A model generated the notes under the pieces. The model worked only from the letters and a program-made list of their open reading frames with translations. It searched no databases and had not been told where the DNA came from. This document shows, piece after piece, positions 1,317-57,691 of a DNA stretch of 64,000 nt. The position numbers were made by a program, and so were the translations under genes. Position 1 is the stretch's first letter; each line of letters begins with the position of its first letter. Origin of the DNA: a virus; the IMG/VR virus record IMGVR_UViG_3300033475_000015; one strand, written 5' to 3'.

Positions 1317-1415
1317 GGGTCGATAGCTCAAATGGTAGAGCCGCGTAGTGGCGCGCCTGGTGACCTCCGGAAGCGAGCCTGCACGCGTGTGGTGGTTCGA
1401 TCCCACCTCGACCCC
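1317..1415 (+). ncRNA. tRNA-like RNA with ~36 nt in place of the anticodon loop
   Basis: Acceptor GGGTCGA/TCGACCC, D arm GCTC-AAATGGTA-GAGC, T arm GGTGG-TTCGATC-CCACC; stem CGCGT/ACGCG encloses 1347-1382. Confidence 0.7.
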
Positions 1416-54820: not shown

Positions 54821-55330
54821 ATGACAAGATCCGACATGTTCGAAGACGCAGTGCAGCATGAGACAGAGATCCGCTGGCACGACGACCCCGCCCGGTACCC
54901 GTACCTGCGCCAGCAGATCATGGGGCACACCTCCCGGTCCCGGGTGATCGGAGCGGGTGACCGCTGGTCGCTGGGCAAGCGCATCGTGGGCTACGCCGTA
55001 CTGGGTCCCAAGTCCCCTCCGGGACGGTTCGATCGTCGAATATTCTGGTGCAAGATGGTCGATCGGGACGGCAGTCGGGAGGACCCACCCTACAACGAGG
55101 CGGTGGATCCCCGGCTGATCCGGGCGGGGGTGGTGTGCCCATGGCTGTTCGGCTACTCCGTGCCTCTGGAGGACTGCGCCAGTTGGCTGGCTGCTCGCCG
55201 CAAGGAGATGGGGCTGGCCGAGGGGGAGCGGGCCGCTGCCGCCCCACCGAAGCGGGTACCCCCCATGACCAGGCAATCTTCGGTTTCACCCGGCGTTGCT
55301 CGATTGACAAGCCAACGCGGGGCACGGTAG
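54821..55330 (+). CDS. DUF6009-like protein
   Basis: EIRWHDDPARYPYLRQ...VGYAVL...FDRRIFW; leaderless TAGACT. Confidence 0.6.
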   Translation: MTRSDMFEDAVQHETEIRWHDDPARYPYLRQQIMGHTSRSRVIGAGDRWSLGKRIVGYAVLGPKSPPGRFDRRIFWCKMVDRDGSREDPPYNEAVDPRLIRAGVVCPWLFGYSVPLEDCASWLAARRKEMGLAEGERAAAAPPKRVPPMTRQSSVSPGVARLTSQRGAR

Positions 55331-55333
55331 TCT
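55304..55333 (+). promoter_or_regulatory. Sigma-A-type promoter for the Y RNA cluster
   Basis: TTGACA-N18-TAGTCT, 7 nt before the first Y RNA stem. Confidence 0.7.
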
Positions 55334-55339
55334 GGTACA

Positions 55340-55414
55340 CAGATCGAGCCGAACGGCAGCGGGTTACCCTTTCGCTAAGAGACAACCCCGCCGCCAACCA
55401 ACTCGCCCGATCTG
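55340..55414 (+). ncRNA. Y RNA-like 1 (short)
   Basis: Stem CAGATCG/CGATCTG; GCCGAACG Ro-binding motif; 3' ACCAACTCGCCC. Confidence 0.7.
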
Positions 55415-55428
55415 CGCACAATCGTCCT

Positions 55429-55512
55429 GGCGCCCGAGCTGAACGACCGTGGGTTACCTTTCACTCTGGATGAAACAAGTCACCCCACAGTCACCCCACT
55501 TGCCCGGGTTCC
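55429..55512 (+). ncRNA. Y RNA-like 2 with anticodon-like hairpin (CTG, Gln)
   Basis: CGAGCTGAACG; TTTCA-CTCTGGA-TGAAA; 3' ACCCCACTTGCCC. Confidence 0.7.
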
Positions 55513-55539
55513 TGGACGCGGCACCACTTGCTGGGCCTC

Positions 55540-55742
55540 GGCCGAGCGAGCTGAACGACCGTCGGTTATCGCCTCTTAAGCGGGTGGTTGCGGGTTCAAG
55601 TCCCGCCGAAGGCAGTACGACCGTGAGCCGGTGAACGGACGTTACGACGATCCGACCCGGGCAACCTCACGGCTCCACCTCCCTCGTAGCTCAATTGGCA
55701 GAGCACCTAAACACCGGCAGTCACCAACTCGCTCGCTCGGCC
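55540..55742 (+). ncRNA. Y RNA-like 3 (YrlA-type) with permuted tRNA module and 66-nt insert
   Basis: 12-bp terminal stem; anticodon loop CTCTTAA, T arm GCGGG-TTCAAGT-CCCGC, then D arm GCTC-AATTGGCA-GAGC. Confidence 0.8.
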
Positions 55743-55761
55743 GGGACCCAGTTGGTGGACC

Positions 55762-55894
55762 GCGCGAGCTGAATGAGAGTCGGTTATCTCTTTAGAAAAG
55801 GGCCGGTCCGGGTTCGAACCCCGGCGTCTCCACGTGGGGACGTAGTGTAATTGGCAGCACGGTAAACACCGACGATCAACCACCTTGCCCGCGC
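55762..55894 (+). ncRNA. Y RNA-like 4 (YrlA-type) with permuted tRNA module
   Basis: CGAGCTGAATG; T arm CCGGG-TTCGAAC-CCCGG; acceptor CGTCTCC-ACGT-GGGGACG; D arm GTGT-AATTGGCA-GCAC. Confidence 0.82.
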
Positions 55895-55996
55895 ACCCCA
55901 GTCCGGCCCCGATCCGTTTGGCCCCCCCGGCGGATCGGGGCCGGGCCCATCCTCGCCCGATGACTGCGTCATCGAGCCGAATGCTAGGAGATCGAC

Positions 55997-57691
55997 ATGA
56001 GCAACGCTTTGTCTCGCCACGGCCAGACACACTCGACCCCCCAGACGTCCCCGATCCCGGGCCGCGAGCCCGACATGGTCCAGAACGCGGCGGGCGGCTA
56101 CGCCTTCGCCAAGGACCTGTTCGAGCGACTCCAGGACTTCCTGATCCTGGGCACCGAGGGCAACACCTACTACGCCGACGAGAAGTCCCGCACCCTGCAG
56201 AACGTGCAGGTGGTGCACGACGCGATCCGGGCCGACGGTCTGCGGGCTGTCAAGCTGGCCGTCGAGATCTCCACGGCCCGTCCGGCCCGTGCCGTCAAGA
56301 ACTTCCCGGCCCTGTACACGATCGCCGCTGCGCTGTGCTCGGACGACCTGGCCACCCGCCAGGCGGCGGCGGGCTCGACCCACCTGGTCGCCCGAACCAC
56401 CGACCATCAGGCCCACCTGTTCGGCTACGTCAAGTCGATGAAGGGCAAGCCCGGCGGGCGCAACGGCCGGTCCCCGTCTGTCGGCGGTCCCGTGTTCAAG
56501 CGTGCCTGGACCAACCTGTTCGTCCAGGACCGGGCCGACGCCGTGGCGTACCGGTACCTCAAGGCCCGGTCCCGCAAGACCGGTGACGGCGAGCCCTTCT
56601 CTCCGCGCGACCTGCTGCGCATCGCCAAGCCCGTCCCGAACAGCGAGGTCCAGAGCACCCTGTTCGGCCTGATCTCTGGCAAGGTCAGCCCCATGGAGGC
56701 GAGTGGTGCGCTGGCCTCGTGCAAGTCGTTCTATGAGGCTCAGCTGGCCGACACCCCGGCCAAGGCGGTCCGGGCGATCAACGCCTACCACGTCCCGTGG
56801 GAGTTCCTGCCCACCGAGGTCCTGAAGCACCCGGAGGTCTGGGAGGCCCTGGTCCCGCACCTGGGCATGACGGCCCTGATCCGCAACCTGTCGCGGATGA
56901 CCCAGATCGGAACCCTCGGCCCCTTCAAGCGGGCCAACCGCCGGGTGGCCCAGCGGCTGACCGACCAGGCCGAGCTGCACGCGGCCCGGATCCACCCGTT
57001 CGACCTGCTGCTGGCCCTGAAGGTCTACGAGTCCGGCGCGGCCCAGCCGAATCTTAAGGCACCGGTCCGCACCTGGGACCCGGTGCCCGAGATCGTCACC
57101 GCCTTGAACGAGGCCTACGTCAAGTCCTTTGCGGTCTGCGACAAGATCCCCGGCAACCTGCTGGTGGCCGTCGACAGCTCGGGCTCGATGCAGGGCACGA
57201 ACGTCCAGCACGGCGGGTCAAATCTGGGGTCGGCCTATCGCATGGCCCTGGCGTTCGGCCAGATCCTGATGCGCACCTGGGGCGGCCAGGTCCACATGGT
57301 CGACTTCGACCAGGAGCTGCGCCGCAGCCCGCTGCGGGCCGACATGACCCTGTCCGAGATCAACCGTCTGCACAACGGCCGGGGCTGGGGTACCGACGCC
57401 TCGGTCGTGATGCGCTGGGCCACCCAGCACCGCCACTTCGTCGACGGGTTCGTCCTGATCACGGACAACGAGTCGTGGGCCGGGGACCGCCACGCCAGCC
57501 AGGCCCTGACCGAGTACCGCCGTACGGTCAACCCCAACGCCCGCGTGATCTGGGCGGCCACAGTCCCGAATGGCTACAGCCTCGGCGACCCGACCGACCC
57601 CGGCATGCTGAACGTCCAGGGGTTCGACAGCAACCTGGCCACCCTGGTCTCCTCGTTCATCGGGCCCGCCGTGCGGGCGCCGATGGGGTAG
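55997..57691 (+). CDS. rsr: Ro60-related TROVE-domain RNA-binding protein with vWA domain
   Basis: QNAAGGYAF, FLILGTEGNTYY, MTALIRNLSRM, RIHPF, VAVDSSGSM, GTD, ITDNE, DPGMLNVQGFD. Confidence 0.93.
   Translation: MSNALSRHGQTHSTPQTSPIPGREPDMVQNAAGGYAFAKDLFERLQDFLILGTEGNTYYADEKSRTLQNVQVVHDAIRADGLRAVKLAVEISTARPARAVKNFPALYTIAAALCSDDLATRQAAAGSTHLVARTTDHQAHLFGYVKSMKGKPGGRNGRSPSVGGPVFKRAWTNLFVQDRADAVAYRYLKARSRKTGDGEPFSPRDLLRIAKPVPNSEVQSTLFGLISGKVSPMEASGALASCKSFYEAQLADTPAKAVRAINAYHVPWEFLPTEVLKHPEVWEALVPHLGMTALIRNLSRMTQIGTLGPFKRANRRVAQRLTDQAELHAARIHPFDLLLALKVYESGAAQPNLKAPVRTWDPVPEIVTALNEAYVKSFAVCDKIPGNLLVAVDSSGSMQGTNVQHGGSNLGSAYRMALAFGQILMRTWGGQVHMVDFDQELRRSPLRADMTLSEINRLHNGRGWGTDASVVMRWATQHRHFVDGFVLITDNESWAGDRHASQALTEYRRTVNPNARVIWAATVPNGYSLGDPTDPGMLNVQGFDSNLATLVSSFIGPAVRAPMG

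What the first reader, a model, noticed from the sequence alone, without database searches (positions are those of the whole stretch)
55568..55704. Y3 is a full tRNA-Lys-like cloverleaf permuted at position 26/27 with a 66-nt structured insert between the acceptor strands
Seen: order is anticodon arm, variable loop, T arm, 3' acceptor strand (55607-55613), insert 55614-55679 (CCGTGAG/CTCACGG helix), 5' acceptor strand (55680-55686, 5 of 7 pairs), D arm. Known: permuted tRNA genes in some algae and archaea mature by ligation and end processing. Inference: RNase P/Z processing could excise the insert as a separate small RNA and leave a two-piece tRNA mimic.
Basis: partly seen in the sequence, partly recalled or inferred. 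Interest (0 to 1): 0.62.

Follow-up and report, generated by a model that had tools for sequence, protein, structure and literature searches.

The report
Phage Y RNA with extended acceptor arm
This is one of four small "Y RNAs" that a soil phage encodes in front of its Ro60 gene: a known kind of rotated tRNA look-alike (here lysine-tRNA-like) whose closed acceptor end carries an unusually long extra hairpin, so it is an unusual member of a described family, not a new kind of gene.

Summary
At 55568-55704 the sequence has, in rotated order, an anticodon-like hairpin (loop CUCUUAA), a 5-nt variable loop, a T arm, a 3' acceptor strand, a 66-nt insert, a 5' acceptor strand (5 of 7 pairs) and a D arm. 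ARAGORN calls the re-joined pieces tRNA-Lys(CUU).

It is not a permuted tRNA gene. It is the third of four Y RNAs upstream of a Ro60/Rsr gene (55997-57691) and belongs to the YrlA class. That class is already described as resembling circularly permuted tRNAs with closed acceptor stems (Chen 2014; Wang 2018).

A model built from relatives without Y3 finds it at 73 bits. Comparative data move the junction to about position 28/29, not 26/27.

The acceptor arm is the hypervariable part of the family. Caps are mostly 2-25 nt, and Y3's is the second longest seen. One related phage (L237) has an orthologous 69-nt insert, 50% identical in sequence but folding into the same long hairpin.

Excision by RNase P has a precedent in M. 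smegmatis YrlA. Y3's imperfect acceptor stem, missing CCA and helix-continuing insert argue for a sealed, extended arm instead.

The scan had already noted anticodon-bearing phage Y RNAs on another genome.

The parts
55304..55333 (+). Promoter-like TTGACA, 18-nt spacer, TAGTCT, in front of the Y RNA array
   Evidence: Read. TTGACA/TTGACG stands at the same place before the first Y RNA in L001, L002, L003 and L011. The strict sigma-70 scan did not call it, so this is inferred only.
55530..55753 (+). Whole Y3 RNA as bounded by its long basal stem (about 196-224 nt, depending on where the ends lie)
   Evidence: MFE fold -106.2 kcal/mol, z -3.35, 0 of 200 shuffles as good. The R1 match covers 55558-55726 at 73.2 bits.
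55542..55570 (+). 5' strand of the Ro60-binding basal stem, with GCUGAACG (55550-55557) and GGUUAUC (55564-55570)
   Evidence: A profile of the simple Y RNAs (R2) hits it at 18.3 bits, E 1.6e-6. The motif is a variant of the GNCGAAN0-1G motif of PMC4201824.
55568..55584 (+). Anticodon-arm mimic: stem 55570-55572 with 55580-55582, 7-nt loop CUCUUAA at 55573-55579, 'anticodon' CUU at 55575-55577
   Evidence: The hairpin covaries in relatives (helix 2). It is invariant in four orthologs whose Ro60 proteins are only 62-65% identical to this one.
55583..55585 (+). 3' side of the short helix (tRNA positions 42-44) that pairs with 55705-55707, directly after the D stem
   Evidence: Both central pairs form in 61% of 41 distinct modules against 19% after shuffling partners (0 of 2000 shuffles). 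Pair types UA, CG, GC and UG all occur. The same helix is in the Rfam YrlA consensus.
55590..55606 (+). T arm
   Evidence: 100% of cells are paired in 31 relatives.
55607..55613 (+). 3' acceptor strand CGAAGGC, followed by A55614 at the discriminator position
55614..55679 (+). 66-nt expansion of the acceptor cap. It is an irregular hairpin: helices 55619-55627/55666-55675, 55628-55631/55657-55660 and 55636-55642/55647-55654, a 3'-side internal loop GCAAC at 55661-55665, and an apical loop UACG.
   Evidence: An orthologous 69-nt insert with the same layout lies within L237:510-592. No similarity to anything else in the window or in the loci fetched so far.
55680..55686 (+). 5' acceptor strand UCCCUCG
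   Evidence: It makes 5 of 7 pairs. The MFE fold instead bulges C55613 and adds A55614-U55680 and G55615-C55679.
55689..55704 (+). D arm GCUC/AAUUGGCA/GAGC, preceded by U8 and A9 at 55687-55688
55705..55741 (+). Partner of 55583-55585 (ACC), then linker UAAAC, then the 3' strand of the basal stem
   Evidence: R2 gives a weak match at 55711-55741.
55997..57691 (+). Ro60/Rsr gene served by the Y RNA array
   Evidence: Pfam vWA_Ro60 at 4.8e-34 and TROVE at 1.7e-17. 371 phage records carry relatives annotated as Ro-like RNA-binding protein.

Best explanation
Y3 is a YrlA-class Y RNA of an uncultured actinophage. It is transcribed with three other Y RNAs ahead of the phage's Ro60 gene.

Its long basal stem, which carries the conserved GCUGAACG strand, is the expected Ro60 binding site. 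The rest folds into an L-shaped mimic of tRNA-Lys(CUU).

- The T and D arms form the elbow.
- A short helix after the D stem stacks on a hairpin with a canonical lysine anticodon loop, together making a full anticodon arm.
- The acceptor stem is closed rather than open.

In Y3 and in one related phage the closing loop has grown into a hairpin of about 66-70 nt that continues the acceptor helix.

The most likely working form is the intact RNA. Ro60 holds the base. The conserved anticodon arm and elbow are offered to a tRNA-binding host or phage factor, as tether or decoy. The acceptor extension is a tolerated, structurally maintained expansion of the one arm that the family does not use.

Shown here: the anatomy, the family membership by model and context, the covariation, and the conserved insert.
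Inferred: Ro60 binding, the lack of processing, and the decoy or tether role.
For: Context:
- A Ro60 gene lies directly downstream.
- Four RNAs share the Y RNA 5' strand.

Family:
- Rfam YrlA matches 55582-55710 with a 68-nt gap placed exactly in the acceptor loop (29.6 bits, E 5e-4).
- Model R1, built without Y3, scores it at 73.2 bits, E about 1e-20, over its full length.
- R1 also finds Y RNAs of cultured Mycobacterium and Gordonia phages.
- The structure covaries.

Literature:
- YrlA has T, D and acceptor-like stem-loops plus a fourth stem-loop upstream of T.
- Acceptor stem length varies and is much longer in some cyanobacteria.

Insert:
- Caps are mostly 2-25 nt. Only L083 (46 nt), Y3 (66 nt) and L237 (69 nt) are very long.
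- Against L237 the insert is 50% identical while the flanking parts are 83-89% identical.
- Both inserts fold into the same long hairpin.

Use of the arms:
- The anticodon hairpin is invariant in four orthologs whose Ro60 proteins are only 62-65% identical to this one.
- Across Y3 and those orthologs the acceptor arm ranges from a 7-bp stem with a 5-nt loop to a 69-nt insert.
Against: - There are no RNA data of any kind, so ends, processing and Ro60 binding are all inferred.
- The Rfam gathering score for YrlA is not met.
- The literal GNCGAA motif has U for C in Y3.
- Nearest-neighbour folding prefers a 7-bp hairpin in another register and gives the composite anticodon arm +4.3 kcal/mol. That part rests on comparative data only.
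- A conserved structured insert could also mean that the insert has a job of its own. The sealed-arm reading does not explain that.
- The precedent of RNase P cleavage in M. smegmatis YrlA keeps processing open.
Confidence: 0.72

Rival explanations
1. RNase P cuts 5' of U55680. The 3' side is trimmed back to A55614 and receives CCA. This releases the insert as a hairpin RNA of about 65 nt and leaves a two-piece tRNA-Lys mimic held together by the basal stem and still bound to Ro60.
For: - M. smegmatis YrlA is cut by RNase P in vitro and in vivo and gains CCA, and both halves co-precipitate with Rsr (PMC4201824).
- Many relatives keep exactly 7 acceptor pairs.
- 9 of 17 caps of 10 nt or more, and 4 of 42 shorter ones, encode NCCA right after the 3' strand. 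That is far above the 1 in 64 expected and suggests that some caps are cleavable linkers.
- Both Y3 and L237 have A at the discriminator position.
- The conserved hairpin could be a product.
Against: - Y3 has no CCA.
- Its acceptor stem has mismatches at 1-72 and 4-69 and lacks G1. Short-cap orthologs are 7 of 7.
- The insert pairs across the would-be cleavage site (A55614-U55680 and G55615-C55679, probability 0.74).
- Caps that carry CCA look AU-rich and unpaired by eye, unlike this GC-rich helix.
Confidence: 0.2
2. A true circularly permuted tRNA-Lys gene. The transcript ends would be joined to make a circle, and the acceptor would then be opened to yield a decoding tRNA, as in Cyanidioschyzon merolae.
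For: The order of the parts is the same, and the in-silico rotated sequence is called tRNA-Lys(CUU).
Against: - The termini form a long stem with the Y RNA motif shared by Y1-Y4, not a bulge-helix-bulge.
- The gene sits in a Ro60 operon.
- The acceptor stem is defective.
- The splicing endonuclease pathway is not reported in bacteria (bioRxiv 10.1101/312249).
Confidence: 0.02
3. A decaying copy. Y3 would be a Y RNA inactivated by a 66-nt insertion, or a remnant of two tandem tRNA genes, with no function of its own.
For: The acceptor stem is imperfect. Tandem tRNAs can mimic the pattern (PMC4201824). Such false positives were seen downstream of rsr in L061.
Against: - All other helices and the tRNA-invariant bases are intact.
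- The core is 83-89% identical to L237 although the Ro60 proteins are only 65% identical.
- The insert keeps its hairpin through sequence change.
Confidence: 0.04
4. The insert is a second, nested Ro60-binding (Y-like) module, so that Y3 would carry two Ro60 rings.
For: By eye the insert has GAGCC..UGAACG and CAACC..UCAC strings that recall the basal stems of Y1-Y4.
Against: - Local alignment to Y1-Y4 is no better than shuffles (46 of 500 for the best).
- The Y RNA profile R2 finds Y1-Y4 but not the insert, even at E 10 with filters off.
- The strings are not kept in L237.
Confidence: 0.03

Closest known systems
Mycobacterium smegmatis YrlA (Chen et al. 2014, PMC4201824)
   Same: [quoted passage not shown]
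- It has T and D arms, an acceptor-like stem-loop, and a further stem-loop upstream of the T arm.
- It is bound by Rsr.
   Different: - The M. smegmatis RNA has a clean 7-bp acceptor stem and is opened by RNase P with CCA addition.
- Y3 has a 5 of 7 stem continued by a 66-nt hairpin and no CCA.
- I could not fetch the M. smegmatis sequence for a direct alignment.
Salmonella Typhimurium YrlA (Rfam RF02553; crystal structure PDB 6CU1, bioRxiv 10.1101/312249)
   Same: - A closed acceptor stem, the T/D elbow, the UA linker, and a short helix after the D stem that leads to the Ro60 module.
- It is described as resembling a circularly permuted tRNA.
   Different: - Salmonella YrlA lacks an anticodon loop and has a 6-bp acceptor stem with a small loop.
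- Y3 has a complete anticodon-like hairpin and the long insert.
- Y3 scores 29.6 bits against the Rfam threshold of 69.
Cyanobacterial YrlA RNAs with long acceptor stems (e.g. Stanieria cyanosphaera, PMC4201824)
   Same: The acceptor arm is much longer than in tRNA.
   Different: Only the published statement was available. Lengths and shapes were not compared here. Those are cellular RNAs; Y3 is from a phage.
Y RNAs of cultured actinophages (Mycobacterium phage BackyardAgain, Gordonia phage Cashline, Microbacterium phage SM23)
   Same: They follow the same model (R1 at 60.9-99.8 bits), have the same position before a Ro-like gene, and have anticodon-like hairpins.
   Different: - Their caps are 3-18 nt.
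- The RNAs are not annotated in the BackyardAgain and Cashline stretches.
- In SM23 part of one is annotated as tRNA-Asn.
Circularly permuted tRNA genes of Cyanidioschyzon merolae and one archaeon (cited in bioRxiv 10.1101/312249)
   Same: The 3' half comes before the 5' half, and the acceptor is closed by an intervening sequence in the precursor.
   Different: - Those mature into real tRNAs through a bulge-helix-bulge cut and ligation.
- Y3's ends are a Ro60-binding stem, and nothing suggests maturation to a decoding tRNA.

Membership tests
YrlA class of bacterial/phage Y RNAs (Chen 2014; Rfam RF02553) | Encoded next to a Ro60/Rsr (TROVE + vWA) gene | tested here: met
   The Y array at 55336-55890 lies directly upstream of 55997-57691, which matches Pfam TROVE and vWA_Ro60.
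YrlA class of bacterial/phage Y RNAs (Chen 2014; Rfam RF02553) | GNCGAAN0-1G motif near the 5' end, in the stem formed by the two ends | tested here: inconclusive
   Y3 has GCUGAACG at 55550-55557 (U for C). Y1 has the exact GCCGAACG. The profile of the relatives' simple Y RNAs hits 55542-55570 at E 1.6e-6.
YrlA class of bacterial/phage Y RNAs (Chen 2014; Rfam RF02553) | Conserved T-like and D-like stem-loops with tRNA-invariant bases, separated by an acceptor-like stem-loop | tested here: met
   Shown by the Rfam alignment, ARAGORN on the rotated sequence, R1 at 73.2 bits and covariation. The acceptor element is present but expanded and imperfect.
YrlA class of bacterial/phage Y RNAs (Chen 2014; Rfam RF02553) | Reaches the Rfam gathering score (69 bits) | tested here: not met
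   Y3 scores 29.6 bits. No actinophage relative reaches the threshold either: 32.6-47.5 bits for four short-cap relatives including SM23, 37.4 for a mycobacteriophage and 42.2 for Gordonia phage Cashline. The shortfall therefore reflects the model's reach more than the insert.
YrlA class of bacterial/phage Y RNAs (Chen 2014; Rfam RF02553) | Bound by Rsr/Ro60 in vivo | not testable with these tools
   This needs immunoprecipitation or a gel shift.
Circularly permuted tRNA genes | The transcript ends form a bulge-helix-bulge that is cut and ligated into a circle | tested here: not met
   In the fold the ends form a long stem with single-base bulges that carries the Y RNA motif. There are no two 3-nt bulges around a 4-bp helix.
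Circularly permuted tRNA genes | The product is a standard tRNA with an intact 7-bp acceptor stem | tested here: not met
   The stem makes 5 of 7 pairs, with U1-C72 and C4-A69 mismatches.
tRNA (Rfam RF00005) | Scores as tRNA in native order | tested here: not met
   A partial match of 18.9 bits against a gathering score of 29. ARAGORN finds nothing there.

The most novel reading that the evidence does not exclude
Y3 and its ortholog in L237 are opened at the acceptor end. RNase P would cut at 55679/55680, and the 3' side would be trimmed and given CCA at A55614. This would release a conserved hairpin RNA of about 65 nt with its own role. It would leave a Ro60-tethered two-piece tRNA-Lys(CUU) mimic, with a lysine anticodon and A73, that could be charged or could bait lysine-tRNA-specific anticodon nucleases of the host.
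Probability: 0.1. Interest if true: 0.7.

Novelty: new member of a known kind. Interest (0 to 1): 0.3.

Why it matters
Ro60-Y RNA particles are widespread in bacteria and phages, but the partner of the tRNA-like module is still unknown.

This locus, together with its relatives, gives a clear conservation contrast. The lysine-type anticodon hairpin and the elbow are frozen. The acceptor arm is free to grow from a 5-nt loop to a 70-nt hairpin.

That points the search for the partner towards factors that read the anticodon arm and elbow, and away from factors that need a free CCA end.

It also supplies natural variants for testing whether RNase P opens these RNAs: short caps, caps that carry CCA, and hairpin caps.

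In itself the finding is an unusual member of a described family.

Tried and rejected
- **Nested Y RNA in the insert.** Local alignment was no better than shuffles, and the Y RNA profile R2 was silent on the insert. Rejected.
- **Insert as a repeat or mobile element.** There was no other copy in the window or in the roughly 660 kb of loci fetched so far. An exact 23-mer was absent from the viral contigs. A blastn search of the phage collection found only the tRNA-like core in SM23.
- **Fetching M. smegmatis YrlA by the primer sequences in PMC4201824.** A 21-mer gave nothing.
- **The window's own contig.** No whole genome is held. The Ro60 protein is not on record for a contig look-up. No near-identical phage record exists.
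- **Promoter and terminator scan.** It found nothing under its criteria.
- **Pattern scans of the viral contigs for further long-cap Y RNAs.** Caps reached 37 nt with at least partly paired acceptor stems. None was like Y3's.
- **Thermodynamic test of the composite anticodon arm.** It is not favoured by the energy model. I kept it on comparative grounds only.
- **Annual Review by Sim et al. 2020 (PMC10870794).** Not held.

Full report
**1. What is there**

The region 55330-55890 holds four consecutive structured RNAs. They share a 5' strand of the type CGAGCYGAAYG...GGUUAYC and a C-rich 3' strand. A 564-aa gene with TROVE and Ro60-vWA domains follows at 55997-57691. Its neighbours are replication genes: Prim-Pol, a DinG-like helicase, a PD-(D/E)XK nuclease and a family A polymerase.

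Relatives of the Ro60 protein occur in 371 phage records, mostly actinophages, at 36% identity or less. The nearest cellular relatives, at about 50%, are from Actinomadura and Nonomuraea. The window is therefore an uncultured actinophage with a Ro60-Y RNA operon, and the finding is its third Y RNA.

**2. The observation**

- When 55680-55705 is joined to 55568-55614, ARAGORN calls a 76-nt tRNA-Lys(CUU). It has U8, A14, an A15-U48 pair, G18, G19, a UUC T loop and A73. It also has acceptor mismatches at 1-72 and 4-69.
- In native order neither ARAGORN nor Rfam tRNA calls it.
- The whole RNA (55530-55753) folds with z -3.35.

**3. What it is**

Rfam's YrlA model aligns 55582-55710 and places a 68-nt gap exactly in its acceptor loop (29.6 bits, E 5e-4, below the gathering score of 69).

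I built a covariance model (R1) from six relatives, without Y3: window Y4, two RNAs each from two metagenomic phage contigs, and Microbacterium phage SM23.

- R1 scores Y3 at 73.2 bits over its full length.
- R1 also finds Y RNAs before the Ro-like genes of Mycobacterium phage BackyardAgain and Gordonia phage Cashline.
- On 31 matches, 94.6% of cells pair, 20 of 23 pairs show double changes, no shuffle reaches this, and slid controls fall to 39-51%.
- All these actinophage RNAs fall below Rfam's threshold (32-47 bits). The miss therefore reflects the model's reach, not only the insert.

The literature already describes the class.

- YrlA RNAs lie beside rsr in more than 250 bacteria and phages.
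- They have T, D and acceptor-like stem-loops, and often a fourth stem-loop upstream of T (PMC4201824).
- The Salmonella structure is an L-shaped tRNA mimic with a closed acceptor stem.

**4. Where the rotation point lies**

In 41 distinct modules, the two bases just 3' of the anticodon-like hairpin pair with the second and third bases after the D stem. They do so in 80% and 66% of cases, and both pair in 61%. After shuffling partners the last figure is 19% (0 of 2000 shuffles reach the observed value). Pair types UA, CG, GC and UG all occur. Pairing with the hairpin's own 5' flank reaches only 59%.

In Y3 these pairs are G55583-C55707 and G55584-C55706, plus U55585-A55705. Among orthologs, L236 and L002 show double changes at these pairs.

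The D stem therefore runs straight into a short helix that abuts the hairpin with no linker. Together they make a full anticodon arm. The Ro60 stem branches from its 5' strand at about position 28/29, not 26/27.

Topologically the hairpin occupies tRNA positions 29-41. It is not in the place of a variable arm, which is how the 2014 paper labelled it. The energy model does not prefer this arrangement (+4.3 kcal/mol), so it rests on comparison. Another follow-up of this scan reached a similar view on a different phage (e1-5694908).

**5. The insert**

Among 59 distinct modules with at least 5 acceptor pairs:

- 42 caps are shorter than 10 nt;
- the long tail runs 10-30 nt;
- L083 has 46 nt and Y3 has 66 nt.

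The insert matches nothing else in the window or in the loci fetched so far. It is not a hidden Y RNA. On its own it folds no better than shuffles.

The decisive datum is L237, a 22-kb contig whose Ro60 is 65% identical. Its Y3 ortholog (L237:461-632, 66.7 bits) has a 69-nt insert at the same place (the CM alignment shows a 73-nt gap there).

- Flanks are 83-89% identical and the insert 50%.
- L237's insert folds strongly (-42.7 kcal/mol, z -4.1).
- Both inserts share one plan:
  - a helix beginning CCGU;
  - a 3'-side internal loop, GCAAC against GCUACAA;
  - a second helix, CCGG/CCGG against CCCCAG/CUGGGG;
  - an apical helix with a UAC-containing loop.

By hand I count at least four pairs changed on both sides. 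With only two sequences this is suggestive, not proof.

Orthologs at the same protein distance lack the insert. L239 has 7 bp and a 5-nt loop, L236 has 7 bp and 13 nt, and L240 has an irregular 9-bp arm. The acceptor arm is thus hypervariable, and the long hairpin is a derived trait of one sub-lineage.

**6. Is the insert cut out?**

The idea has a precedent. M. smegmatis YrlA, with a 7-bp acceptor stem, is cleaved by RNase P, gains CCA, and both halves remain on Rsr (PMC4201824).

I also found that 9 of 17 caps of 10 nt or more, and 4 of 42 shorter ones, encode NCCA immediately after the 3' acceptor strand. By eye these linkers are AU-rich. They look like cleavable linkers.

Y3 and L237 belong to a different type.

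- Neither encodes CCA.
- Both inserts are GC-rich and paired across the would-be cleavage site (A55614-U55680 and G55615-C55679, probability 0.74).
- Their acceptor stems are imperfect (5 of 7 and 6 of 7), while short-cap orthologs are perfect.

I therefore put excision at about 0.2 and the intact, sealed and extended arm at about 0.6-0.7. No RNA data could be obtained.

**7. How it probably works**

- Inferred from the family: Ro60 binds the basal stem, and the tRNA-like module engages a tRNA-binding factor.
- New here: the pattern of constraint. A 23-nt stretch, GUCGGUUAUCGCCUCUUAAGCGG, covers the junction and the lysine-type anticodon hairpin. It is invariant in Y3 and four orthologs whose Ro60 proteins are 62-65% identical to this one. 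The acceptor arm varies freely in the same RNAs.
- Other Y RNAs of the family display other canonical loops, such as CUGUUAA, CUUUUAA, CUUCUAA and CUCAUAA.

This favours a partner that reads the anticodon arm and elbow. Candidates are a modification enzyme or an anticodon nuclease for which the RNA is bait. It argues against partners that need a free 3' end. The identity of the partner is speculation.

**8. Verdict**

- The object is a member of the published YrlA class with an unusually large, structurally conserved acceptor-arm expansion.
- Novelty is modest: a new member of a known kind.
- The sub-threshold Rfam scores of all actinophage Y RNAs, and the mis-annotation in SM23, show that the class is poorly covered by current annotation.

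Noticed in passing
L003:285-351 (Microbacterium phage SM23, PQ655446.1 26711-26777): The feature annotated as tRNA-Asn is the 5' part of a Y RNA (R1 match at L003:297-402, 99.8 bits). It lies upstream of the phage's 'RNA-binding protein'. Its CUGUUAA hairpin and T arm were read as a tRNA.
   Followed up: partly
window 1317-1412: A tRNA-like element lies between the two called tRNAs. It has acceptor GGGUCGA/UCGACCC, a D arm and a T arm, but about 47 nt where the anticodon arm and variable loop should be. Neither ARAGORN nor Rfam tRNA calls it.
   Followed up: no
fetched loci, e.g. L020:1337-1454, L095:5098-5216, L019:1157-1271, L096:8337-8445: Many Y RNAs with acceptor caps of 6 nt or more encode N-CCA directly after the 3' acceptor strand, followed by a linker that looks AU-rich (13 of 59 modules against about 1 expected). 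This looks like a built-in tRNA 3' end to be exposed by cleavage.
   Followed up: partly
window 55966-55996; L002:2955-2979: The rsr 5' leader contains GAGCCGAAUG (window) or GAGCCGAAAG (L002) just before the start codon. This resembles the Ro60-binding motif of the Y RNAs and could mean autoregulation. The Y RNA profile R2 did not score it.
   Followed up: partly
L001:2863-2923, L002:2781-2855, L011:1267-1339, L012:798-870, L008:1-45: In relatives a real tRNA gene follows the Y RNA array before rsr. In L001 it is only 61 nt and appears to lack a normal anticodon arm. The window has none there, only a 12-bp GC hairpin at 55905-55942.
   Followed up: no
L237:540-575: The L237 insert contains GCUACAACG twice, once as the apical loop and once as the internal loop. 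The window has GUUACGAC and GCAAC at the matching places. This could be a repeated protein-binding motif.
   Followed up: no
L083:1009-1149: A Y RNA from an unrelated metagenomic contig has a 46-nt structured acceptor cap without CCA. It is the only other very long hairpin-type cap seen.
   Followed up: partly
window 55336-55416 and 55431-55509: The two simple Y RNAs (Y1, Y2) give their best Rfam matches to the nematode stem-bulge RNA family RF01656 (30.7 and 17 bits, below the threshold of 38).
   Followed up: no
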